From: an uncultured Acidobacteriota bacterium
Lineage (GTDB): Bacteria; Acidobacteriota; Terriglobia; UBA7540
Reading direction: 5' to 3'
Length of the DNA stretch: 64,000 nt
Assembly: GCA_963804755.1 (NCBI GenBank)
Contig: CAWDRP010000002.1
Coordinates: 118,179 to 182,178, forward strand
Shown in pieces: positions 6,853 through 19,324 of this stretch. Both the position numbers and the translations under genes were made by a program. The notes below the pieces were generated by a model. That model did no database searches. It saw only the letters and a list, made by a program, of their open reading frames with translations, and was not told where the DNA came from. Numbering within the stretch: the first letter of the stretch is position 1; each line of letters opens with the position of its first letter.

Positions 6853-9261
6853 TTACGGCGCCGCGAACGGGTCGGGCGGCGGCTTCAGCCGATATTCCTT
6901 CGGCGGCTCGGCGCCCAGTAGATAGCGCACGAAGTAGTCCCACCGTCTTCGCACCATGTACGGCTCATTGCCGAACCCATGCCGGCGGTTGGGCAGCAGG
7001 AGCAGATCGAAATCCTTATTCGCCTTAATCAACTCGTTCACCACCAGCAGCGTGTTATATGGCGGCACGTTGTCGTCGAGCGTGCCGTGGGCCAGCAGCA
7101 GGTGGCCCTTCAGGTTTTTGGCGATATTCTCGTTGGCTTGGTCGTCGTAGTTCGTAGCGCCGTCCGGTGAGCGCGTCAGCAGTCCCTGGTAGCGCTCGCC
7201 CCAATCGTCTTCGTACTCGCGATTGTCATGGTTACCGGCCTCCGAAATTCCCACCTTGAAGAAATCCGGGTAACGAAACATCGCGTCCGCCGCGGCGTAA
7301 CCTCCGCCAGAATGGCCATAAATGCCGGCGCGTGCGAGGTCGATCCACGGATAGCGCTGGGCCAGTTGAGTCATTCCGGCCACCTGGTCAGGCAGTGTGT
7401 TGTCACCCATGTTCCCGTAATAGGCGTCGTGGAATTTCTTCGAGCGCAGCGGATTACCCATGCCTTCGATCTCGACCACCACGAAACCGAGTTCAGCCAG
7501 AGCCTGTGCGTCACTGCGCGCGGACGCGAACGACCAGTTACCGACACTCCCTTCCTGCGGCCCGGGATAAATTTGGTTGATGATGGGATACTTCTTCTGC
7601 GGGTTAAGTCGAGTGGGTGCGAACATCAGGCCGTAGAGGTCGGTCGATCCGTCGCGCGCCTTAACCATGATCGGCTGGGGCGGTTTCCACCCGGTCGCCA
7701 GCAATTGGGAAATGTCGGCCTTTTCGATGGTCGTCAGGAGCTTGCCGTCGGACTGTCGTAGCACGGTGACGGGCGGAACGTCGGGCCGGGAGTAGCTGTC
7801 CACGAAAAAGCGCGCCGAGCGCGAGAAGCTGACCTCATGGTCGGCATCTTCCGGCGTCAACAGCGCGAGTCCCTGCCCATCGAGTCCCGCGCGATACAGA
7901 TGAGTGAAGTAGGGATTGCACCCGGGTTCCCGCCCGTCGGCCAGAAAATAGACCGTGCGCGCCTGCTCATCCACGCGCAATAACCGGGTGACCACCCAGT
8001 TGCCGGCGGTGATGCGGTCCTTCAGCGTTCCCGAACTCAGGTCATAAAGGTAGAGGTGGCCCCAATTGTCGCGCTCGGAGTACCAGATGTACTCGTTCGA
8101 GCCGAACAGGATGCGCCAGTTCACGCCGCCCTGTCCAGATTCGTACTGCGTCGCGACGCGCTCTTCCATGACGTCCCGAACGCGGCCGTTCGCGGCGTCG
8201 GCAATCCGCAGTGTCTCCTGTTTGTGGTCGCGCGAGGTGGAGAGGAAAGCCAGCCGTGTTGAATCCGGACTCCACTGAACGTCCGTCCAATTACCCGCCT
8301 CCTCAAATGGACCATCCGGGCAGGCGACGTCGTCGCACAGTGAGGACCGGTGAGGATCGGGCGCCATCCGCAGGCGAATCACCTTCGGCGTTTCCACCTC
8401 GATGATGACGCGCTGAATGGTGGCTATTACGTCATCGCCCGGCAGCGGGTACTTCCACGCTTGCAGCGCCGGATGGCCCACCTTGGTCTCAACCAGGTAC
8501 ATCTCGCCCACCTTCCGTTGGTCCTGCTGAAAAGTGGCGATCTTCTTCGAGTCCGGCGACCACATCAGGATCGGCCGGTCACTTTTCTCCCATCCCGCGT
8601 TGTCCAAGGCGTACGAGAAGTCCTTGATGCCGTCGGTGGTGAGCTGGGTCTCTTTGCCGCTGGCCACATCGCGCACCCACAGGTTGTACTCGCGTATAAA
8701 AGCCACTTTCTTCTTGTCCGGCGAAGACACCTCGTTGCCCACGCCGCCCCGCCGCCCTTCCCTGCCGGCTGCTCCTTTCGCGCTGCCCTCCTCAGTACAG
8801 ACCCGGCCCTGGCGGTCGCACTGGAACCGGCGGGAGCCGACGTGAAGCGAAACAGATTGGCCATCGGCCGAGAATTCGATTTCGCGGAACGGAAGCTTGT
8901 TCGGCTCGTAAGTCTTGCCTGCCGCCCGCGAAAGAGCCGCTGACAGCCTGGCGTGATCGAAAGCCGGCTCCTTGGCGAGCTTTATGGGGTCAAAGACTAC
9001 GAAGTGCACGCCATCGGCACTGACATCGCGGTACCACAAACGCTCGTCGCTGGTCCACGCGGGCCGCACCGCGTGATACACCAGCGGCTCCGTGTTGTAC
9101 CCCATGAATCTCTCGGCGCGCGCGTAATCGGCAGCGGTTACGACACCAGGCGCCACCGCGTCCTGCGCGCTGACAGACAATCCGATCGGAAAGACGAGCA
9201 ACATCAGCAGTAGTACCAGACAGTGACAATTGCTTTTGAACGGTTGCAAGCGCATAAGCAT
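6853..9261 (-). CDS. S9 family peptidase (DPP IV-type N-terminal beta-propeller plus prolyl-oligopeptidase alpha/beta hydrolase), secreted
   Basis: 802-aa ORF with a signal peptide. GHSGGGY nucleophile elbow (GxSxG) and DPP-IV-like propeller repeats. Confidence 0.8.
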   Translation of the reverse strand: MLMRLQPFKSNCHCLVLLLMLLVFPIGLSVSAQDAVAPGVVTAADYARAERFMGYNTEPLVYHAVRPAWTSDERLWYRDVSADGVHFVVFDPIKLAKEPAFDHARLSAALSRAAGKTYEPNKLPFREIEFSADGQSVSLHVGSRRFQCDRQGRVCTEEGSAKGAAGREGRRGGVGNEVSSPDKKKVAFIREYNLWVRDVASGKETQLTTDGIKDFSYALDNAGWEKSDRPILMWSPDSKKIATFQQDQRKVGEMYLVETKVGHPALQAWKYPLPGDDVIATIQRVIIEVETPKVIRLRMAPDPHRSSLCDDVACPDGPFEEAGNWTDVQWSPDSTRLAFLSTSRDHKQETLRIADAANGRVRDVMEERVATQYESGQGGVNWRILFGSNEYIWYSERDNWGHLYLYDLSSGTLKDRITAGNWVVTRLLRVDEQARTVYFLADGREPGCNPYFTHLYRAGLDGQGLALLTPEDADHEVSFSRSARFFVDSYSRPDVPPVTVLRQSDGKLLTTIEKADISQLLATGWKPPQPIMVKARDGSTDLYGLMFAPTRLNPQKKYPIINQIYPGPQEGSVGNWSFASARSDAQALAELGFVVVEIEGMGNPLRSKKFHDAYYGNMGDNTLPDQVAGMTQLAQRYPWIDLARAGIYGHSGGGYAAADAMFRYPDFFKVGISEAGNHDNREYEDDWGERYQGLLTRSPDGATNYDDQANENIAKNLKGHLLLAHGTLDDNVPPYNTLLVVNELIKANKDFDLLLLPNRRHGFGNEPYMVRRRWDYFVRYLLGAEPPKEYRLKPPPDPFAAP

Positions 9262-9346: not shown

Positions 9347-9591
9347 CACGTCTGAAAAGCCCGCGCAGTGGGCGCCGTCCTTTAGCCCACGGCGCAGCCG
9401 TGGGATAAAGGTAGCGATGAGAATCTGAGCCCCGGTAGGGGCGACGTCTGGGCGCCGGCAGGGCGGAGATTGAACCACGCGCGAGACCTGACGCCGCCCC
9501 TACCGGGGCTGACGAATCGGTGGGCGCGACCGGTGTCCCACGGCTGCGCCGTGGGCTAAAGGACGGCGCCCGCTGCGCGGGCTAAAATCGA
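9347..9591. repeat. REPIN/MITE-like composite element: two inverted REP-like double-hairpin modules (~36-bp terminal inverted repeats) flanking a 130-nt core with its own 15-bp perfect palindrome
   Basis: Left end AGCCCGCGCAGTGGGCGCCGTCCTTTAGCCCACGGC. The right end is its reverse complement. The core has GCCCCGGTAGGGGCG ... CGCCCCTACCGGGGC. A second composite copy lies at 39816-40010. Confidence 0.6.
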
Positions 9592-9740
9592 TGTCGTGTG
9601 AAGCTGTGGTGTGGGCAAGACGAAGTTTGTGAGACAAAGAGCAATGAGTGCTGATAACCATGGAGGAACGGAGACGCAGGGGGCCGCGGGTCCAACCGGC
9701 ATTCTCTGCGTCTCAGAGTCTGAAGGATCAAAGCAGGTGA

Positions 9741-12029
9741 TTAGTGATGTCCGCCACCACCGCCGCCGGAGAAGCCACCCCCGCTGCTGTGGCTGCCGCC
9801 CGCCGAGGAACTCGCGCCGCTGGAGCGTGCGCCACCGGAGTAGCCACCGCCCGAACTGCCGCCGTGGGAACCGCCTGTGGAGCCATGGGCCGCGACCACA
9901 GCGCCTGAACCGCCGCCGAACGAGCGCGAGCCGCCAGGGTTACTAATAACCGGAGCGCCGCCACTCGAGCCGCCGTGCCTTCCGCCTCCAGTAACAGCAC
10001 TGCCGCGAAACTCACCCGGTGTACCCCGCACAGCAAGGTGGCCTCCCAGCGTCGCGCCCTGGAATGCCCGCAACGGCGCGTGGCCGGCATGATGACTTGC
10101 CAGCAGCGCGCTCTCCTTTGCTGCATCACCCCCCATCAGGATGGTGGAAGGCGCACCGTGGTGTGATGCGAAGCTTGAACTCGAGCCACGGGTCGTCGCC
10201 GATGCTGCCGCCGACGCCATCGCTGCGCCCGTCCCTTGCGGAGAGGGTCCAAAAGGCGGTCGGTCGATCCTGCTTCCCTGCGGGGGCAGAACGCGGGTGG
10301 CGATTTGCGCCGTAATCATTTGGCCATTCTGGAAGGCCGCAGTGGGCACTCGGATCATTTCGGCTGACCTGATGCGGGGACCCGCGCCGGGAGGATGAAT
10401 GCCTACGGGTGGCCGGGGTCCGGGGCGGCCCGTCCCCGGGAATCCAGTACTGCTGCCCGAACCTAGGGGCCGCCAGCCGATCCATCCCGGTCCCATATAC
10501 CAACTGACCAGCGAACCTTCCCAAAGCCCGCATGAGTACATCGGGTTCATCCAATACCAACCGAAGCTCGCGTCGAAATCCCAAAGCCCGCAGTGGTCAG
10601 TCACCCAGCCCCATGGGTCGGCGGAAATCCACGCCCAGCCGTAGCCCGAGTACCATGACCACATCCCATTCGTATAAGGCGACCAACCGGCCAGGGAGTA
10701 AGGCGACCAGCCGAACCTGCCACCGGCAAGCGAAACCCACTCACCGTAGGTGTTCAGGTCACCCCAGCCATAGCTTGTCCCCATCGGATGCACGGCCTCG
10801 TCCATCGCCGTAAGCTCTGCCTGCTTGTCCCGTGCCTCCGCCCACTGGTCCCAAGCGTCCTTCACAATTCGCTTCGGGGAGTTGACGGCCATTTCCGTGC
10901 CGCCTATTCTGCGTTCGAATGTCTTGCCTTCAGTCAGACTGGAAGACACCCCCGGCGCGTCAACATCCACCGAGCCATTGAAAACTTCCACGCGAAAGTG
11001 GTCCTGATCAAGGTCGGTACGGAACTCGCATTTGCCACTCGCCGTCACAACGGCGTCCGCAATCTTGACGCGGGTGGCGCCACTGTACTTGGGGAGAAAG
11101 TGGATAACGCCATCCGCTCCACGCTGTTTGGCCGCGGACGCGAAATTGTGTTCGGGCACAAAGTGGAACGTGCCATATCCCTGTTCAAAGGTCATGCCGT
11201 TCAGCTTGTTGCCGTCGGCATCCAGCGCCAATTGGTGGAAGAGCAATTGCGATTGCTCGCCGATGCGCGCCGTGGACCCGTTTTCAAATTCCACTTCGGC
11301 ATAACCGCCGGCGTCGGTGGAAAGCTCGAACCCCTCCTGAATGGGCGTATTCAGCAACGCCTTGGCTGGTTCCGCGGTGCCGGGCCGCTTGAGCATCACC
11401 GCGCCGCTCACGAAGCTCAGGCGAACCACCCTGGCATGCGATTTCGCAACCTCCGCACCCGGCGATGGCACGTACTCCAGATCCTCCCCCTTGCTCACCG
11501 TAAGGGAGTTGGCGTGTGCCGAGATCGAAACGGCGCCTGACGACACGTACAGGGTCACCTTCCCGGAATTGAAACCGACCAGGAATTGGGCTTTCCCCGA
11601 AGGGGTCAGCGTGGCGTCAGCAACCTTCACCTCGTACCCAGGTTGACGTTCAGATGCAAAGCGAAGGTTGATGTATCCCTTTTCCAAGGCGACCTGGCTC
11701 GGTTGGCCGCCATTGGCCTCGCTACTGAATTGGCTGAATTGCGCGGTGGTGAGTCCCTGGAGTTGAAGGGTGGATCCGTTCGCAAGCGCCACGGCGGCTG
11801 CACCCCCACTCGCCGTTGACAGCTCAAGGCCGTCTTCAATGGGCATGTTCACGGTTGCCGGGATCTTCTCCGCGGCGCCCGCGCGCGTAACCGTCACTTG
11901 GCCGCTCAGCGAAGTAAGCCGCGCTGAGTCAAGCTGGGAAGAACCTTGCTGAGAAAAGAGAGCTGCCGGCAGGAAAAGCAGCCCCGCGACTACAACCACG
12001 AGTACACGACGTACGCAATCGTATCTCAC
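9741..12029 (-). CDS. Secreted FecR-domain protein, paralog A: two FecR-like domains, a Trp/Gly/Tyr-rich module, a Pro-rich linker, and a long Gly/Ser low-complexity tail ending GGHH
   Basis: Alignment with the paralog start at 13739 places a GTG start (VRYDCVRRVLVVVVAGLLFLPAALF signal) preceded by GGAGG. The ORF track extends it to 12173. FecR-type motifs are VVRLSFVSGAVMLKRPG...PIQEGFELSTDAGGYAEVEFENGSTARIGE. The W-rich block is YGWGDLNTYGEW...GWSPY...PGWIGW. Confidence 0.6.
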   Translation of the reverse strand: MRYDCVRRVLVVVVAGLLFLPAALFSQQGSSQLDSARLTSLSGQVTVTRAGAAEKIPATVNMPIEDGLELSTASGGAAAVALANGSTLQLQGLTTAQFSQFSSEANGGQPSQVALEKGYINLRFASERQPGYEVKVADATLTPSGKAQFLVGFNSGKVTLYVSSGAVSISAHANSLTVSKGEDLEYVPSPGAEVAKSHARVVRLSFVSGAVMLKRPGTAEPAKALLNTPIQEGFELSTDAGGYAEVEFENGSTARIGEQSQLLFHQLALDADGNKLNGMTFEQGYGTFHFVPEHNFASAAKQRGADGVIHFLPKYSGATRVKIADAVVTASGKCEFRTDLDQDHFRVEVFNGSVDVDAPGVSSSLTEGKTFERRIGGTEMAVNSPKRIVKDAWDQWAEARDKQAELTAMDEAVHPMGTSYGWGDLNTYGEWVSLAGGRFGWSPYSLAGWSPYTNGMWSWYSGYGWAWISADPWGWVTDHCGLWDFDASFGWYWMNPMYSCGLWEGSLVSWYMGPGWIGWRPLGSGSSTGFPGTGRPGPRPPVGIHPPGAGPRIRSAEMIRVPTAAFQNGQMITAQIATRVLPPQGSRIDRPPFGPSPQGTGAAMASAAASATTRGSSSSFASHHGAPSTILMGGDAAKESALLASHHAGHAPLRAFQGATLGGHLAVRGTPGEFRGSAVTGGGRHGGSSGGAPVISNPGGSRSFGGGSGAVVAAHGSTGGSHGGSSGGGYSGGARSSGASSSAGGSHSSGGGFSGGGGGGHH

Positions 12030-12312
12030 GGCCGGCCTCCTGCGGAGATTATACACCCGGCTTCTATATTGATGGACGAAACAGGATGGAGACGGGTTGC
12101 AGTTCTGAAGGCGAGATTCCGATGCGGCAGAAAATGCGCGAAGCGCCTGGGAGTGCGGCCGCGAAGCTGCCACCTTTGCCGTGGTTCTGGTCTTCTCAAC
12201 GAACGCCAGAAGCGGCAGCTTCGCGGCCGCACTCCAAGGCGCTTCGCGCAGGTATAGAACTCAGTTCTTTCTTACTAGAATTCGTGAGCGCCGGCCCAAC
12301 CACTACGCGGCG

Positions 12313-12500
12313 TTAGTGGTGCGCGCCGCTACTTGTGCTTGGGCCAGAACCGGCCGGACGCCCGGCGCCGGAGGTGCCAGAAACGGCCATGCTGGGCGAC
12401 GAGTTGACTGAATTGGCGCCGCCAACGCGCCCGTTCGAGATCGCCCCGCCCTCCATACCACCTTGGCGAGCAAACGCCGCCTGCTGTCCATGGGGCAACT
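12313..12500 (-). pseudogene. C-terminal stub of a FecR-family paralog (B): Gly/Ser tail ...LPHGQQAAFARQGG...GAHH
   Basis: Matches the C-terminus of the 13988-15625 paralog (LPHGQQAAFARQGG...SSSPSMAVS...GGHH) at protein and DNA level. The upstream body is missing. Confidence 0.5.
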
Positions 12501-12685
12501 GACCAACCAGCCGGTACGCTGCCATGTCTCCGCCCGGCTGCCTTCCCTGTGGCAAATCTCTCAGTTCGTCCCTTGCGTCCCACTCTCGGTTATATGTTGC
12601 TTCTGGTGTCATTTCTACGCCGCTATCCATTTCTTCCAAGTGGAGGGCCGGAATCACTCCCGGCCCCGCCACCGCAAGACACGCG

Positions 12686-13444
12686 TTATTGCCCCTTCGC
12701 CCAGCGAGTGTCTTGGTCAGTCCACCTCTTAAGGTCGTCTGCATCTGGTACGATGCCGGCGTGCTTGTAGACAGCTCCCATCACCACACTGGGCTTGTCG
12801 GCCCGGTAGTCACTAGAAACGCTGAAAAGGGCCGGATCGGGCTCCTCGTAAACCAGACTGTCCGCCTTCTGCTCCATGATTACGTTCCCCTCTTCGTCTA
12901 CCGATTGGTACGCAAGGATCCAACACCCGAGACCCGGTGCCGTTTTTAGGGTAACCACGTGTGGCTTAGTTGCCTCCACGTCGTCTGTAATGACAGCAAC
13001 ACGCTCCCCCAGTATCCTGTCCCATCCCCTAAATGTTTGGTTGGCTGAAACACAGTTGGAGCCGGAATTATTAAATCTCCTGAGGAGAGCACCCGCCATC
13101 ACTTGCGGACTTTGCGCCGGATAGTTGATAACCATGCCCACGCTGTCCATGGTCCTAACATTTCTTCCGTCTGAGAACTGTATGTAACGACTGACTTCAT
13201 TCGCTTTTCCCGGAAAGAGACTCCGCTGCATCACGTTGCTGCCGTCTGCTCTGTAGCCCGCAGTTATGTGGTCGATAACTTGGCCCTGGCTGTACAGGGT
13301 GGCCTTCAGCGTAAACGGCCTGACGGTCACCGCTCCTACCGTCGATTGCGCGCGCACGCGAGTTGGTAGGTGGTTCCCCACCAACCAACTCACCACAATA
13401 GCTAGGATACTGATTGCCGCCAAAACCAGCGTCCGTATTTTCAC
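12686..13444 (-). CDS. Hypothetical signal-anchored protein (252 aa) occupying the place of the missing body of FecR paralog B
   Basis: Clean 252-aa ORF with an N-terminal hydrophobic helix (MKIRTLVLAAISILAIVVSWLV). I recognise no domain. It is flanked by the N- and C-terminal stubs of a disrupted paralog. Confidence 0.4.
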   Translation of the reverse strand: MKIRTLVLAAISILAIVVSWLVGNHLPTRVRAQSTVGAVTVRPFTLKATLYSQGQVIDHITAGYRADGSNVMQRSLFPGKANEVSRYIQFSDGRNVRTMDSVGMVINYPAQSPQVMAGALLRRFNNSGSNCVSANQTFRGWDRILGERVAVITDDVEATKPHVVTLKTAPGLGCWILAYQSVDEEGNVIMEQKADSLVYEEPDPALFSVSSDYRADKPSVVMGAVYKHAGIVPDADDLKRWTDQDTRWAKGQ

Positions 13445-13550
13445 AGTTGAAATCCTCCGGTTCGCTAAATTCTTAGTCTCGACTTAAGGCCCCGGCCGTC
13501 AACAGGGGAGACCGCATATGTTGAAACACGACAAATCCAGATCAGAGAGA

Positions 13551-13739
13551 TCACCGCAAGCTTGAATTGTGTTGGGACAGCACTCCGCAAACCGACGTCA
13601 GCCGCGCTGAACCAAGCTGGGAAGAATCCTGTTGCGAAAAGAGAGCTGCGGGTAGGCAAAGCAGCCCCGCGACCACAACCACGAGTACACGACGTATGCA
13701 ATCGTATCTCACGGTCGGCCTCGTGCGGAGATTATACAC
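13551..13739 (-). pseudogene. N-terminal stub of FecR-family paralog B (signal peptide only, then stop)
   Basis: MYNLRTRPTVRYDCIRRVLVVVVAGLLCLPAALFSQQDSSQLGSARLTS is near-identical to the N-terminus of paralog A. The reading frame closes after 62 aa. Confidence 0.5.
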
Positions 13740-13987
13740 CCGGCTTCTATATTGATAGACGAATCAGGATGGAGATGAGTTGCAGCGTTGAGAGCAAGAT
13801 TCCGATGCCGCGAATAATGCGCGAAGCACCTTGGAGTGCGGCCGCGAAGCTGCCGCCTTCCTGGTTCGTTGGGAAAAGCAGGAACCGCGGCAAAGGCGGC
13901 AGCTTCGCGAACTCCAAGGCGCCTCGCGCAGGTATAGAACCCGGTTCTACCACCATTCCTGAGCGCGGGCTCGGCCACCACGCGGCG

Positions 13988-15625
13988 CTAGTGGTGCCCG
14001 CCACTGCTTGAGCTTGATGGACCGGCGCTGGCTGCGTGCCCGGCGCTAGAACTAGAAACGGCCATGCTGGGCGACGAACTCACTGAACTCTGGCCGCCGC
14101 CGGCCTGCCCTCCGGACGTCGGGCCCCCCTGGCGAGCGAACGCCGCCTGCTGTCCATGTGGCAGCAAGGTCGGCCCGCCCGCGGTGCGCGAGAATTGCGG
14201 TCCGCCCACTCCCTTTTGGCCTTTCACGCCGGCAAAAGCATCGCCACGAAATTCACCCACGCCGCCACCCACCGCGTACAGACCGCCCAAGGTTGTTCCC
14301 ATGCGCGCCCGCAGTGGCTGATGGCTGGAGTGCCCCCCCTCAAGCGCAAGTTCCTTCTCCCCTGCGCCTCCCATGAGAATAGAACTCGGCGCGGACGAGT
14401 GTACGGCGCCCGCCCGGGGGGTGAACAGCGCTGCCGTACTCCCCGAGAGCGGCGTGCCGGAAAGCAGCGCTCCGGCGCCGGGTTCGAAAGGCAGCGTCCG
14501 GATCCTGGTTCCCACCGTCACCGGCACATGGTTCACCGTCTCTGGGCTCACCGCCAGTCCGTTTTGAACAACGCCACCCGGAACGGTGGTGACGATGCTT
14601 TGACCCGCCACCCCAAGCGCACCCTGCGGCGCCCAGCCAATCCATCCTGGCCCTGAATACCAACTGACTAATGCTGGGGAGAAGGCCCCCATATTCCCGG
14701 GTGTCCAGAACCAGCCGAAGCCGGGTGAGAAATCCCAATTGCCGTAATGGTAAGGCAGCCAGCCCCACGGCTCACCGGAGATCCACGTGTAACCCATTCC
14801 CGGATACCAATTCCACATCCCCATCGTATACGGCGACCAGCCGGCCGCTGCGAACGGCGACCAGCCATACCCGAACCCGGGGAAGTACCCCCATTCGCCG
14901 TACGCGTTGAGGTCGCCCCACCCGTAAAGAGGCCCCGTGGCCGGCACTGCCTGATCGTTGAACGACAACTGGGTTTGAGTGTCGCGCTGCGATGTCCACT
15001 TATCCCAGGCATCTTTGGCGATTCCCTGCGTTTCGTTCATCGCCATTTGCTGGGACGCCGTATCAAATTCCAGCACCTTTTCCTTGCCCAATTTCGCGGT
15101 CTTCTGGTTGGGCGCGGCAGCTTCCACGGAGCCTGAGAATACTTCCACCCGTGCTTTACCGCGGTCAAGGTCGGTGCGGAATTCGGTCTTGCCGTTCGGG
15201 GTCAGTGTGGTTTCGGCAATCTTCACGCTGTACGCATCGTGGTGTTCCGGCAGAAGGTGAAATGTTGCGTACCCCTGTTCAAATGTGATGCGGTTCAGCT
15301 TGTTTCCCTGCTCATCCATCGCCAGTTGGTCGAAGTTCACCTTGGAGAGCTCGCCCAAGCGCGCCGTCGAGCCGTTCTCGAATTCCACCTCAGCGTAGCT
15401 TTGGGCGGAAGTCGAAATCTCGAACCCTTCCTGGATGGGAGTGTTTACCTGCGCCTTTGCCCATTCCGTGGAGGTCGGCCGTTTCAGGGCCACGGTGCCG
15501 CTGACGTAGCTCAACCGCACCACCCGCACGTGCGATAGGTTTTGTTGGGCAAAAGCAAAGGTGGATAATCCGAAGATCCCGAGAACCAACAACTGAAACC
15601 CATGACGTAAGGCCTTGCTATTCAT
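13988..15625 (-). CDS. Secreted FecR-domain protein, paralog C: one FecR-like domain, Trp-rich module, Gly/Ser tail ending GGHH
   Basis: A start at MNSKALRHGFQLLVLGIFGLSTFAFA is preceded by a GGAGG ribosome-binding site. The ORF track extends to 15754. Same module order as paralog A. Confidence 0.6.
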   Translation of the reverse strand: MNSKALRHGFQLLVLGIFGLSTFAFAQQNLSHVRVVRLSYVSGTVALKRPTSTEWAKAQVNTPIQEGFEISTSAQSYAEVEFENGSTARLGELSKVNFDQLAMDEQGNKLNRITFEQGYATFHLLPEHHDAYSVKIAETTLTPNGKTEFRTDLDRGKARVEVFSGSVEAAAPNQKTAKLGKEKVLEFDTASQQMAMNETQGIAKDAWDKWTSQRDTQTQLSFNDQAVPATGPLYGWGDLNAYGEWGYFPGFGYGWSPFAAAGWSPYTMGMWNWYPGMGYTWISGEPWGWLPYHYGNWDFSPGFGWFWTPGNMGAFSPALVSWYSGPGWIGWAPQGALGVAGQSIVTTVPGGVVQNGLAVSPETVNHVPVTVGTRIRTLPFEPGAGALLSGTPLSGSTAALFTPRAGAVHSSAPSSILMGGAGEKELALEGGHSSHQPLRARMGTTLGGLYAVGGGVGEFRGDAFAGVKGQKGVGGPQFSRTAGGPTLLPHGQQAAFARQGGPTSGGQAGGGQSSVSSSPSMAVSSSSAGHAASAGPSSSSSGGHH

Positions 15626-15869
15626 GGTCGGCCTCCTGCCTGGAGATGAGGGCATTATACGACATTTCCATGTTTGCTGCTGCAAGTATCTTCCCGTACT
15701 TTGCCTCCGGTCAAATCCTGTACTGTCACGCCGCAATCTGCCGCTCCCCTGCATTCCCCATTGCCTTCCTGCTCAAACCATGGGACTCTGTGGTGCCTCG
15801 CGCGGTGGCGAGCTTGCCTCGCCACATGGCGTCATAGGGGCAAGGTTACCTCGCACCAGGACGGTAGTA

Positions 15870-17189
15870 ATGCCGTCTCCGCATCGTATGGATACCATCA
15901 TTAACTCCGTTGAGAAAACCCGTATCCGTTGGGTCCTGGTGGTATGGGTCTCCTTTATGGGGGCGATCAGTTTCCTCGACCGGGTCAACATCTCCATTGC
16001 CGGGCATTCGATATGCCAGGATTTCCACCTGGCCGACATGCAGCTCGGGAAGATCTTCAGCGCCTTTTTCATCGGCTACGGGCTGTTCCAGGTAGCCGGA
16101 GGCTGGACGGTTGACCGCCTGGGGGCGCGCCGCACGCTGCTCTTGGGCGCCGCGTGGTGGGCCGGCTTCACCGCTCTTACGGCCAGCTTTCCCGCCGGGA
16201 TCGCACAGGCATTCTTGATGATCTGGTCGGTGCGATTCCTGCTGGGCATGGGCGAGTCCGTGATGTACCCGAGTTCCAACCGCTGGATGGCGAATTGGAT
16301 ACCCACCGCCGAGCGTGGCCTCGCCAATGGCCTGATCTTTGCCGGCGTCGGCGGGGGCTCGGCCCTTGCACCTCCGATCATTCGTTACGTCATGGTGCAC
16401 CTGGGTTGGCGCTCGTCCTTCTGGGTATGCGCCGTGCTGGGATTGCTGGCCGGCGCGGCCTGGTATGGGATGGCGCGCGACCATCCTGACCAGCACTCGT
16501 GGGTGAACGATGCGGAGAGAAAGTGGATTCATCAAGGCATCCCACAAGCCGATCCCATTCAGGCGCCTAAACTCTCGTGGGCCACTATTCTCGGAAGCAA
16601 GGACGTTTGGGCACTCACCCTCAGCTACTTCTGTTACGGATACACGCCCGCGATATTCTTCACGTGGTTCTTTATCTACCTCACCCGCGTCCGTGGCCTG
16701 AACCTCCAAACCGCGAGCTACCTCGGTATGTTGCCCTTTATCGCCATGGCGGTGGGGTCGGCGTTGGGCGGCTGGATTGCCGACGCCGTGTGCCGCCGAC
16801 TGGGGCGCCGGTGGGGGCGTTGCGGTGTGGCCGCCTTCGGCATGGTCGGCGCCGGGGCGTTTATGGCGGCGGGTTCGCAACTGTCCACCGCCGCCGCAGC
16901 CAGCGCGATTTTGGCGTTGGGCGCCGGTTCGCTCTACCTCGCCCAAAGCTCGTACTTCGCGCTGTCCGCCGATTTCGGCAAGGGCTCCGCCGGATCGCTC
17001 TCCGGTTTTATGAACATGGGCGCGCAAGCGGGCGGCGCCGTCACCGCCGTCACCACGCCCGCTATTGCCGCGCATTTTGGCTGGACCGTGTCATTCTTAA
17101 CCTCCGCCGCCTTCTGCGCCGTGGGCGGCATCCTGTGGCTGTTTATCAATCCCAATTGCTCACTCCCTCCCCGTAAGCCACGCATGTAG
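15870..17189 (+). CDS. MFS transporter, anion:cation symporter (ACS, hexuronate/galactonate-type) family
   Basis: 12-TM pattern. GWTVDRLGARRT MFS signature and YPSSNRWMANWIPTAERGLANG, typical of ACS-family sugar-acid permeases. The ORF-track start at 15615 overlaps the divergent gene, so an internal ATG was chosen. Confidence 0.7.
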   Translation: MPSPHRMDTIINSVEKTRIRWVLVVWVSFMGAISFLDRVNISIAGHSICQDFHLADMQLGKIFSAFFIGYGLFQVAGGWTVDRLGARRTLLLGAAWWAGFTALTASFPAGIAQAFLMIWSVRFLLGMGESVMYPSSNRWMANWIPTAERGLANGLIFAGVGGGSALAPPIIRYVMVHLGWRSSFWVCAVLGLLAGAAWYGMARDHPDQHSWVNDAERKWIHQGIPQADPIQAPKLSWATILGSKDVWALTLSYFCYGYTPAIFFTWFFIYLTRVRGLNLQTASYLGMLPFIAMAVGSALGGWIADAVCRRLGRRWGRCGVAAFGMVGAGAFMAAGSQLSTAAAASAILALGAGSLYLAQSSYFALSADFGKGSAGSLSGFMNMGAQAGGAVTAVTTPAIAAHFGWTVSFLTSAAFCAVGGILWLFINPNCSLPPRKPRM

Positions 17190-18581: not shown

Positions 18582-18980
18582 TCACACCCAAAGGGTGTTC
18601 AGTTCGCTCGCTACGCGTTCAAAATCTCTGTCGCTGGTTACCAAGGCGGCTTTGCGGGAACGGGCTAGGGCGCCAGCGAAAGCATCTGCGTAAGGCAGGT
18701 TGTATCTACCTTTGAGGCTCGCAGCTTCCTCCGTGAGCTGCATGTCGGCGTCCACTACTTCAATGGGGAGTTGGGCGATTTCAAGCAGTTTGGCGCGCGC
18801 GATTTTCTCGCCACGCGCGCGCCAGAGCGAGTAATATACCTCCCCCCAATTGACCACACACATCGCCAGCGGCCGCTCGGCGTCAGCGGCCTTGGCCAAC
18901 AACTCCTCCACCTTAGCGGCGCCGGCGCGGTTCTCGAAAAACGTCATGAGCGCGCTCGCGTCCAGCACGTACGTCGTCAT
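18582..18980 (-). CDS. vapC: PIN-domain toxin VapC
   Basis: 132 aa starting MTTYVLDASALM (PIN signature D). Overlaps the upstream antitoxin gene by 4 nt (ATGA). Confidence 0.8.
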   Translation of the reverse strand: MTTYVLDASALMTFFENRAGAAKVEELLAKAADAERPLAMCVVNWGEVYYSLWRARGEKIARAKLLEIAQLPIEVVDADMQLTEEAASLKGRYNLPYADAFAGALARSRKAALVTSDRDFERVASELNTLWV

Positions 18981-19213
18981 AAAGCGCGCTCCCGCTGCCG
19001 CTCCTGCAACAGTACGTCGAGCGCCGAGGGCTCGCCCTCTAGCGAGCCGCGCAGGCTCCGGATGAATTCGCGGGTGACGGGTTGCAAGATCATGCGCCTC
19101 CCATCCTCTGAAAACACCACCACGGTACCCTTTTTGATCGCAAACCTCCGGCGCAGCCGCGCGGGAATCACGAGTTGACCCTTGGACGTCACCACGCTGG
19201 TTTCGAGCTTCAT
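18977..19213 (-). CDS. vapB: AbrB/MazE/SpoVT-type antitoxin VapB
   Basis: 78 aa, MKLETSVVTSKGQLVIPARLRRRF swapped-hairpin motif. Immediately upstream of vapC. Confidence 0.7.
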   Translation of the reverse strand: MKLETSVVTSKGQLVIPARLRRRFAIKKGTVVVFSEDGRRMILQPVTREFIRSLRGSLEGEPSALDVLLQERQRERAL

Positions 19214-19324
19214 AGGTCACATCTCCTGATTATTGGATACCACACCACGATATGTAAGTCAAATTATTATTATCTTACTTCAAGGATAATGTAGCCCGGC
19301 AGGGACCAGGAGCGAGCCGGTACG

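What the first reader, a model, noticed from the sequence alone, without database searches (positions are those of the whole stretch)
9741..15754. Tandem array of secreted FecR-domain / Trp-rich / Gly-Ser-tailed paralogs
Three head-to-tail copies on the minus strand share an unusual modular architecture. Each has a signal peptide, one or two FecR-like beta-sandwich domains, a conserved ~110-aa module packed with Trp/Gly/Tyr (YGWGDLNxYGEW ... GWSPY ... SWY ... PGWIGW), a Pro-rich linker, and a 100-250-aa Gly/Ser low-complexity tail ending in ...GGHH. About 450 bp spanning each 3' end, intergenic region and next 5' end is duplicated at DNA level (about 11880-12330 versus 13590-14040), showing recent tandem duplication. 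There is no adjacent ECF sigma factor, so this is not a FecI/FecR anti-sigma pair. The Trp-rich module and the HH-terminated tail match no family I can name.
Basis: partly seen in the sequence, partly recalled or inferred. Interest (0 to 1): 0.7.

Follow-up and report, generated by a model that had tools for sequence, protein, structure and literature searches.

The report
Paired secreted FecR–DUF6600 envelope proteins
Two neighbouring genes of a soil acidobacterium encode exported proteins of a very large, catalogued but never-studied family (FecR domain plus the tryptophan-rich DUF6600 module plus a floppy Gly/Ser tail ending in His-His); the supposed third copy is only debris around a small inserted gene.

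Summary
The sequence features are real, but there are two intact genes, not three. A is 9741-12029 (762 aa, two FecR domains). B is 13988-15625 (545 aa, one FecR domain). The "middle copy" is a signal-peptide stub and a tail stub around an unrelated orphan 252-aa gene.

That gene sits on a 1,087-bp insertion flanked by a ~590-bp duplication of the B-tail/intergenic/A-start junction. A 95%-identical relative lacks the insertion.

The B→A pair is ancient (48% aa identity) and is conserved as a pair in at least eight other Terriglobia MAG loci. It is not a recent tandem duplication.

The Trp-rich module is Pfam DUF6600. It has 11,502 clusters at 50% identity, and the members named by their sources are all Acidobacteriota. 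A confident AlphaFold model (pLDDT 94) shows a PupR/FecR-like β-sandwich, a helix and about four 25-residue Trp β-hairpins with no close solved homologue.

The low-complexity tail is hypervariable, yet its end is almost invariant: GGHH here, and a basic cluster family-wide.

A-type genes carry a conserved ECF-σ-like promoter (GCAAC-N17-CGTC). No anti-σ domain or σ gene is present.

Function is unknown. The best guess is a non-enzymatic envelope binding/tether protein. This is a new member of a known, uncharacterised kind, of moderate interest.

The parts
13988..15625 (-). Gene B (545 aa). Signal peptide aa 1-26 (AFA|QQ), FecR β-sandwich aa ~31-200, helix ~206-223, DUF6600 Trp-hairpin module aa 238-334, structured extension to ~aa 395, conserved motif aa 412-462, LPHGQQ at 488-493, Gly/Ser tail ending GGHH.
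   Evidence: ORF and translation. Pfam. 1709 homologues, orthologues 57-97% identical. Conservation map. AlphaFold pLDDT 94.1, pTM 0.92 for aa 28-400.
9741..12029 (-). Gene A (762 aa, GTG start preceded by GGAGG). N-terminal hydrophobic helix, two FecR domains (aa ~30-190 and ~196-395), DUF6600 aa ~424-524, Pro-rich stretch, conserved motif aa 626-676, ~100-aa Gly/Ser tail ending GGHH.
   Evidence: Start codon and RBS conserved in nine loci. A-type orthologues in L001, L003-L008, L014 and L024.
14624..14914 (-). DUF6600 module of B: three clear ~25-aa repeats plus a partial fourth, G-x-W-x-Φ-x-P-G-x-G-Φ-x-W-x-P-(x4)-W-x-P-Y. Each repeat is a β-hairpin.
   Evidence: Pfam 79-82 bits. Repeat register by hhalign of sub-alignments, P 1e-5 to 1e-6. 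Hairpins in the model. Family consensus.
12498..13584 (-). 1,087-bp insertion absent from the close relative L014. It carries an orphan 252-aa gene (12686-13444, GTG start, GGAGG RBS, N-terminal hydrophobic helix).
   Evidence: blastn against L014. An independent Logan contig, L016, is 100% identical across both junctions. Only one distant homologue exists, P0284 at 57% identity, in a different context.
13585..14163 (-). Repeat copy S1: functional end of B's tail, intergenic region, non-functional signal-peptide stub of an A-type gene (GTG at 13712, stop at 13551).
   Evidence: 92% identical to L014 9463-10045.
11902..12497 (-). Repeat copy S2: non-functional tail stub (12313-12498, ends GAHH), intergenic region, functional start of A.
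   Evidence: 78% identical to L014 and 77% to S1.
12075..12100 (-). ECF-σ-type promoter-like element GCAAC-N17-CGTC, about 45 nt upstream of A's GTG. A duplicate lies at 13758-13783 and now points at the inserted 252-aa gene.
   Evidence: Motif positions conserved while spacer and flanks diverge in all nine A-type loci. Matches the published ECF class (AAC in -35, CGT/CGTC in -10; PMC5758882). Not tested experimentally.
15654..15664 (-). Conserved TGTCGTATAAT (σ70-type -10-like) about 28 nt upstream of B's ATG.
   Evidence: Conserved in B-type upstream regions of L001-L008 and L014. Unique in the window.
12135..12250 (-). Long GC-rich hairpin (48-nt arms) followed by UUUUCU, between the tail stop and the A promoter; probable terminator. 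A partly deleted copy lies at 13818-13930 after B.
   Evidence: RNA fold -98.3 kcal/mol, z -11.6. Present in L014 but not in L001-L008. Not dispersed in the window.

Best explanation
**What it is.** A conserved pair of separately transcribed paralogues encodes Sec-exported, non-enzymatic cell-envelope proteins of the FecR-DUF6600 family, which is hugely expanded in Acidobacteriota.

**Anatomy.** Each protein has a rigid head and a long tail.
- The head consists of one (B) or two (A) FecR/PupR-type β-sandwiches, a connecting helix, and a sheet of about four Trp-zipper-like β-hairpins (DUF6600).
- The tail is disordered, acid-poor and Gly/Ser/Pro-rich. It evolves freely except for two short motifs and its extreme end, GGHH-COOH.

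**Inferred mechanism.** The head docks on an envelope partner, either a protein as in FecR-type sensors or a glycan via the aromatic sheet. The tail acts as a flexible tether whose His/basic terminus contacts an anionic or metal-bearing component.

**Regulation.** B appears to be driven by a σ70-type promoter and ends at a strong hairpin. A appears to be driven by an ECF-σ-type promoter, which would place it in an envelope-stress regulon.

**Local rearrangement.** In this strain a 1.09-kb segment carrying an orphan gene was inserted between B and A, together with a ~590-bp duplication of the junction. The duplication leaves both genes intact and hands the orphan gene a copy of A's promoter.

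**Confidence by part.** Shown: gene structure, family membership, fold of the head, conservation of the pair, conservation of the terminus, and the insertion (confidence ~0.9). Inferred: export, disorder of the tail, promoter class and the binding/tether mechanism (confidence ~0.25).
For: - **Domains:** Pfam FecR plus DUF6600, above the curated cut-offs.
- **Head fold:** AlphaFold with 123 diverse sequences gives pLDDT 94.1 and pTM 0.92 as one rigid body.
- **Tail disorder:** pLDDT is below 30 from aa 402 onward in the full-length model.
- **C-terminus in B orthologues:** terminal H in 113/115, HH in 108/115, G at -3 in 99/115, and a third His at -10 to -13 in 94/115.
- **C-terminus in A orthologues:** they also end in GGHH.
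- **C-terminus family-wide:** at least two of the last four residues are H/R/K in 92/116 representatives and in 103/109 of a second clade.
- **Family size:** 11,502 clusters at 50% identity.
- **Pair conservation:**
- **Promoter element:** GCAAC-N17-CGTC is conserved upstream of all A-type genes while the surrounding sequence diverges. It fits the ECF class described in PMC5758882.
- **Insertion:**
- **No catalytic domain:** no catalytic family is detected in Pfam or NCBIfam.
Against: - No experimental datum exists for any member; full-text searches for DUF6600 and PF20245 found no papers.
- No conserved partner gene emerges in the Terriglobia loci beyond the paralogue itself.
- The signal-peptide call is by eye. 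A's -3/-1 positions are poor for signal peptidase I, so A may stay membrane-anchored.
- The promoter assignment rests on a 9-nt motif that occurs about once per 64 kb by chance. Conservation is therefore the only support.
- The tail's net charge in this clade is only mildly basic.
Confidence: 0.5

Rival explanations
1. They are orphan periplasmic sensor modules of a cell-surface-signalling (FecR/PupR-like) pathway. They would bind the signalling domain of a TonB-dependent transducer and act on an unlinked ECF σ/anti-σ pair.
For: - A-type genes have an ECF-like promoter.
- TonB-dependent-type outer-membrane proteins lie nearby in L014 and L023.
Against: - There is no cytoplasmic anti-σ domain; the FecR domain starts right after the signal peptide.
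- No σ gene lies in the window or the syntenic locus.
- The neighbouring receptors carry CarboxypepD_reg and Plug domains but no STN signalling domain.
- DUF6600 and the tail have no counterpart in FecR systems.
Confidence: 0.1
2. They are surface or matrix structural/adhesive proteins. The aromatic hairpin sheet would bind polysaccharide (EPS, peptidoglycan or plant glycans), and the Gly/Ser tail would embed in the matrix, by analogy with Leptospira FecR-domain adhesins or choline/glucan-binding repeat proteins.
For: - Weak sub-threshold NCBIfam similarity to LipL45 and Lsa33.
- 30% aromatic residues in regular ~25-aa hairpin repeats.
- GH116, MFS and sugar-dehydrogenase genes recur nearby.
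Against: - LipL45 and Lsa33 scores are ten-fold below cut-off, and there is no lipobox.
- There is no Pfam hit to CW_binding, LysM, CBM or WXXGXW repeats even at E ≤ 10.
- No outer-membrane translocation signal was identified.
- The neighbourhood conservation could be inherited synteny.
Confidence: 0.15
3. They are periplasmic metal-binding or metal-buffering proteins. The tail, with its H-x(7-9)-GGHH terminus, GGH/HSGGG repeats and MMH motifs, would chelate Cu, Ni or Zn.
For: - Three near-invariant His residues sit at the C-terminus of an otherwise hypervariable tail.
- His makes up 5% and Met 3% of the last 90-100 aa.
- A-type tails carry repeated GG[HYF]SGGG units.
Against: - In the wider family the terminus is Arg/Lys-rich, not His-rich; His is 0.7% in clade 2. 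The conserved property is therefore positive charge rather than metal ligands.
- No metal-resistance genes lie in the neighbourhood.
Confidence: 0.1
4. One reading: a recently expanded tandem array of three paralogues.
For: A ~590-bp direct DNA repeat spans a 3' end, an intergenic region and a 5' end.
Against: - Only two intact genes exist.
- A and B are 48% identical and form an old, widely conserved pair.
- The repeat flanks an insertion of unrelated DNA that the closest relative lacks.
- No remnant of a FecR or DUF6600 body lies between the stubs.
Confidence: 0.02

Closest known systems
Pfam DUF6600 (PF20245) / 'FecR domain-containing, DUF6600 domain-containing protein' of Acidobacteriota
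   Same: Both proteins score well above the curated cut-off. They have the family's usual layout: signal peptide, FecR, DUF6600 at about residues 200-340, then a low-complexity tail with a basic end.
   Different: Nothing material; these are ordinary members. The family has no known function, structure or literature.
FecR/PupR-type anti-sigma regulators of cell-surface signalling (e.g. PupR CCSSD, PDB 6OVK/6OVM; BDI_1681, PDB 4M0H)
   Different: There is no N-terminal cytoplasmic anti-σ domain, no adjacent ECF σ and no STN-domain transducer. These proteins add a Trp-hairpin module and a disordered tail that FecR lacks.
Leptospira FecR-domain lipoproteins LipL45 / Lsa33
   Same: They are exported proteins built around a FecR domain without an anti-σ part. 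NCBIfam gives weak similarity, E 1e-9 to 1e-5.
   Different: Scores of 24-37 bits fall far short of the 350-420 cut-offs. There is no lipobox, and LipL45/Lsa33 lack DUF6600 and the tail.
Retention module of RTX adhesins (LapA / MpIBP region I, PDB 5IX9)
   Different: The score is below the cut-off of 50. The proteins here are Sec-dependent, not T1SS substrates, and have no RTX repeats.
β-hairpin repeat sheets such as RHS/YD repeats (YenB/YenC2, TcdB2-TccC3)
   Different: The similarity is only marginal, there is no YD motif and only about four repeats. No Pfam repeat family is hit.

Membership tests
Pfam DUF6600 (PF20245) | Match to the family HMM above the gathering score (27 bits) | tested here: met
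   A scores 57.0 bits and B 79.1 bits. The module alone scores 81.8 bits.
Pfam FecR (PF04773) domain | Match to the HMM above the gathering score (24 bits), and the FecR β-sandwich fold | tested here: met
FecR/PupR-type anti-sigma factor (cell-surface signalling) | N-terminal cytoplasmic anti-σ domain followed by one transmembrane helix | tested here: not met
   The hydrophobic helix starts at residue ~8-10 and the FecR domain about 10 residues after it. There is no room for an ~80-aa anti-σ domain.
FecR/PupR-type anti-sigma factor (cell-surface signalling) | Adjacent ECF σ (FecI-like) gene and a TonB-dependent transducer with an STN signalling domain | tested here: not met
   No σ70_r2/r4 or STN family appears among the Pfam-annotated neighbours in L014, L023 and L024. 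phmmer with RpoE, FecI and SigW finds nothing in the window (a weak test).
Leptospira LipL45 / Lsa33 lipoproteins | NCBIfam model above cut-off (350 / 420 bits), and a lipobox | tested here: not met
   Scores are 24-37 bits. There is no Cys at the end of the signal peptides.
C-terminal sorting signals (PEP-CTERM, LPXTG, GlyGly-CTERM, MYXO-CTERM, T9SS CTD) | A signature motif plus a hydrophobic helix plus a basic cluster, or a folded ~80-aa CTD; detectable by NCBIfam/Pfam models | tested here: not met
   There are no Pfam or NCBIfam hits in the tails and no hydrophobic stretch in the tail sequences. Only the terminal basic/His residues resemble these signals.
RTX-adhesin retention module (NF033682) | Model above the 50-bit cut-off; T1SS substrate features | tested here: not met
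   The score is 16.8 bits. An N-terminal Sec signal is present.
Known aromatic cell-wall/glycan-binding repeats (CW_binding_1, WXXGXW, LysM, CBMs) | Pfam HMM match | tested here: not met
   Only DUF6600 is reported for the module at E ≤ 10. HMMER filters may hide very weak hits.
ECF-σ-dependent promoter (for gene A) | AAC in the -35 and CGT(C) in the -10 with a ~16-17-nt gap, plus dependence on an ECF σ | tested here: inconclusive
   The sequence criterion is met and conserved in nine loci (class definition from PMC5758882). Dependence on a σ factor is not testable with these tools.

The most novel reading that the evidence does not exclude
FecR-DUF6600 proteins may be the visible part of an unrecognised, Acidobacteriota-wide envelope system. 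The Trp-hairpin module would be a new ligand-binding fold. The near-invariant basic/His C-terminus on a hypervariable disordered tail would be a new kind of C-terminal anchoring, sorting or ion-sensing signal. The A/B pair would work as a heteromer under ECF-σ control. A link to outer-membrane or LPS biogenesis is possible, because a second clade sits between the lptCAB-rpoN-pts cluster and an msbA-like exporter.
Probability: 0.2. Interest if true: 0.6.

Novelty: new member of a known kind. Interest (0 to 1): 0.35.

Why it matters
- **Why the family matters.** Acidobacteriota are among the most abundant soil bacteria, and their envelope biology is almost unexplored. This family numbers more than 11,000 clusters at 50% identity, often has several paralogues per genome, and has no assigned function.
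- **What this analysis adds for experiments.** It gives a confident model of the head, which is a PupR-like sandwich fused to a Trp-hairpin sheet without a solved homologue. It shows that a disordered tail is selected only at its very end. It also proposes an ECF-type promoter for one paralogue.
- **The locus itself.** It is an ordinary member of the family. Its only peculiarity is a small strain-specific insertion.

Tried and rejected
- **Shallow AlphaFold run.** With 35 close orthologues, DUF6600 came out at pLDDT ~25. This was an effect of alignment depth, not evidence of disorder; 123 diverse sequences fixed it.
- **afdb50 fold search.** It was unavailable, so no annotated structural neighbours were obtained from AFDB.
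- **PDB sequence search.** No hit at E ≤ 1.
- **PHROGs.** No hit for B or the 252-aa ORF.
- **Literature.** Searches for DUF6600, PF20245, and FecR with Acidobacteria returned nothing relevant.
- **ECF σ in the window.** None found by phmmer with three reference σ factors.
- **A wider regulon.** Scanning 394 kb of related DNA for the GCAAC-N17-CGTC motif gave only A-type genes plus likely chance intragenic hits. The motif is absent upstream of B-type and clade-2 genes.
- **HH tail as a shared sorting tag.** In 394 kb, only DUF6600 genes or their frameshifted fragments carry it. The sample is small and biased.
- **Intergenic hairpin as a dispersed REP/MITE.** Rejected, because it is not found elsewhere in the window.
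- **Rfam.** Nothing above gathering score in 9400-16200.
- **Assembly artefact for the insertion.** Made unlikely by an independent Logan contig identical across both junctions.
- **Conserved operon partners in Terriglobia.** None found beyond the paralogue; MFS, GFO and GH116 recur only among closer relatives.

Full report
**What is in the sequence**

The minus strand of 9741-15754 holds two intact genes.
- B is 13988-15625 and encodes 545 aa. Its ATG is preceded by AGGAGG.
- A is 9741-12029 and encodes 762 aa. Its GTG is preceded by GGAGG. The start and RBS are conserved in nine related loci.

Pfam finds FecR (PF04773) in both genes, twice in A. It also finds DUF6600 (PF20245) exactly on the Trp-rich module; all scores are well above the curated cut-offs. 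NCBIfam gives only far-sub-threshold similarity to the Leptospira FecR-domain lipoproteins LipL45 and Lsa33 and to the LapA retention module. The region after DUF6600 matches no Pfam or NCBIfam model.

**The "third copy"**

No third paralogue lies between B and A. Three-frame translation and tblastn show three elements instead:
- a 53-codon stub of an A-type signal peptide (13551-13712);
- an unrelated 252-aa ORF (12686-13444) with its own RBS and N-terminal hydrophobic helix;
- a ~60-aa stub of a B-type tail (12313-12498, ending GAHH).

A metagenomic contig about 95% identical to the window (L014) has B and A directly adjacent. Against it, window 12498-13584 is a 1,087-bp insertion. L014 positions 9463-10045 (end of B's tail, intergenic region, start of A) are present twice in the window, at 13585-14163 and at 11902-12497.

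An independently assembled Logan contig (L016) is 100% identical across both junctions, so the structure is not an assembly artefact.

The two repeat copies have diverged unequally. The copy attached to B is 92% identical to L014. The copy attached to A is only 78% identical, and the two copies are 77% identical to each other. The duplication is therefore not very recent, or one copy arrived from a diverged source. The mechanism cannot be decided; candidates are Campbell-type integration of a circle carrying homologous sequence, or insertion into a pre-existing junction duplication.

The inserted gene is an orphan. Its only relative is a 57%-identical protein in a different context.

**The pair is old and conserved**

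A and B share 48% identity over the second FecR domain, DUF6600 and the tail motif. B has 1,709 homologues in the 5.8-billion-protein set. The best 120 are about 545-aa FecR+DUF6600 proteins, 57-97% identical, and the few that sources name are Terriglobia.

In Terriglobia MAG contigs, the B→A tandem recurs in L001, L003-L008, L014 and L024. Each gene has its own orthologue there.

No other neighbour is consistently conserved. A divergent MFS transporter, a Gfo/Idh/MocA dehydrogenase and a GH116 enzyme recur only in the closer relatives. The downstream genes vary.

**The family**

A phmmer scan of 1.84 billion representatives with the 133-aa module finds 11,502 clusters at E ≤ 1e-3 and 5,402 at E ≤ 1e-10. 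In most, the module sits at about residues 200-340, that is, after one FecR domain.

A second clade of 700-790-aa proteins has members that sources name Acidobacteriota. In three loci that differ greatly in protein sequence, this clade lies between the lptC/A-lptB-rpoN-hpf-hprK-rapZ-EIIA-HPr-EI cluster and an msbA-like ABC exporter. This is suggestive, but it may be inherited synteny.

No paper mentions DUF6600 or PF20245, and no solved structure is detectable by sequence.

**Structure**

With 35 close orthologues, AlphaFold modelled only the FecR domain. With 123 diverse sequences, residues 28-400 of B gave pLDDT 94.1 and pTM 0.92. The model contains:
- a long β-sandwich;
- an 18-residue helix;
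- four β-hairpins spaced about 25 residues apart;
- a few further strands, reaching about residue 395.

Sequence profiles of the hairpin units align in register, with P values of 1e-5 to 1e-6. The consensus is G-x-W-x-Φ-x-P-G-x-G-Φ-x-W-x-P-x4-W-x-P-Y. DUF6600 is thus a short array of Trp-zipper-like hairpins packed on the FecR domain, without a close solved homologue.

**The tail**

In B orthologues, conservation stays high through two motifs:
- APxSILMGG…KE…PLRxRxGTTLGGxYAVGGxVGEFRG (aa 412-462);
- LPHGQQ (aa 488-493).

Conservation then collapses to about 35-40% in the Gly/Ser-rich end, yet the terminus itself is fixed:
- H at -1 in 113 of 115 orthologues;
- H at -2 in 108;
- G at -3 in 99;
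- G at -4 in 89;
- a third His at -10 to -13 in 94.

A-type orthologues also end in GGHH. Family-wide, the end is basic rather than specifically His-rich: HH, HR, RR, RH, KH, and GRGRR or RNRK in clade 2. At least two of the last four residues are H/R/K in 92 of 116 representatives and in 103 of 109 clade-2 proteins.

In 394 kb of related DNA, only DUF6600 genes carry such tails. The tails have no hydrophobic segment and match no known C-terminal sorting model.

**Transcription signals**

Upstream of every A-type gene, GCAAC-N17-CGTC is conserved about 45 nt before the GTG, while spacer and flanks diverge. The motif is absent from B-type and clade-2 upstream regions.

It fits the ECF-σ promoter class: AAC in the -35 and CGT/CGTC in the -10. 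One example is the B. subtilis σV promoter, GCAAAC…CGTC (PMC5758882). The motif alone is expected about once per 64 kb by chance, so conservation is the evidence and σ dependence is untested.

B-type genes instead have a conserved TGTCGTATAAT. Between B and A, in this lineage only, lies a 48-bp-stem hairpin followed by UUUUCU (-98 kcal/mol, z -11.6), a likely terminator. B and A therefore look like separate transcription units.

The junction duplication left a second copy of the A promoter at 13758-13783. That copy now faces the inserted 252-aa gene.

**Interpretation**

The most likely reading is a non-enzymatic envelope binding/tether protein pair. The rigid head would bind a partner. The disordered tail would act as a tether whose basic/His terminus makes a second contact. 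One paralogue would be under ECF-type control. Only the anatomy is shown; the mechanism is inference, with confidence about 0.25.

The rivals considered are an orphan cell-surface-signalling sensor, a glycan-binding matrix protein and a metal-binding tail. None is excluded, but each lacks a defining feature or is contradicted by the family-wide pattern.

**Verdict**

This is an ordinary member of a large, catalogued but unstudied family, carrying a small strain-specific insertion. Interest is moderate and lies mainly in the family rather than in this locus.

Noticed in passing
window 12498-13584 (gene 12686-13444, minus strand): An orphan 252-aa gene with an N-terminal hydrophobic helix was inserted between B and A. 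It has no Pfam, NCBIfam or PHROG family. Its only relative is 57% identical and lies next to cytochrome c and iron-trafficking genes in other contigs (L017, L018). It now sits downstream of a duplicated copy of gene A's ECF-like promoter (13758-13783).
   Followed up: partly
window 12135-12250 and 13818-13930; L014 9696-9812: An unusually long GC-rich inverted repeat (48-nt arms, -98 kcal/mol, z -11.6) followed by UUUUCU lies between B's stop and A's promoter. It is present only in this lineage. L008 has a different long palindrome at the same place. It is not repeated elsewhere in the window.
   Followed up: partly
window 9537-9583 (+), between gene A and the S9 peptidase gene: A sub-threshold Rfam match to the Acido-Lenti-1 RNA motif (27.9 bits against a gathering score of 37; E 0.0028; full-length model match).
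   Followed up: no
L020, L021, L022 (gene at 8001 to ~10100-10400 in each): A second clade of FecR-DUF6600 proteins (700-790 aa) lies in a conserved housekeeping block, between lptC/A-lptB-rpoN-hpf-hprK-rapZ-EIIA-HPr-EI and an msbA-like ABC exporter, followed by yicC-gmk-rpoZ-coaBC-era. This may hint at an envelope/LPS link, or it may be inherited synteny.
   Followed up: partly
window 11950-12029 and orthologous positions in L001, L003-L008, L014: The first ~25 codons of A-type genes (VRYDRIRRVLVVVVAGLLF…) are conserved almost base for base across loci whose proteins are otherwise ~55% identical. That is unusual for a signal peptide. The -3/-1 positions are poor for signal peptidase I, so this helix may be a retained membrane anchor or may carry an RNA-level signal.
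   Followed up: no
L013 10001-11637 and L024 8944-11329: In these MAG contigs the B-type (L013) or A-type (L024) gene is split by a frameshift, so the Gly/Ser…GGHH tail appears as a separate ORF. These are probably homopolymer or low-complexity assembly errors rather than biology.
   Followed up: no
window 18582-19220 (-) and L014 16208-16781: PIN-domain (VapC-like) toxin genes, with a PhdYeFM antitoxin in L014, flank the locus. They are unrelated to the finding.
   Followed up: no
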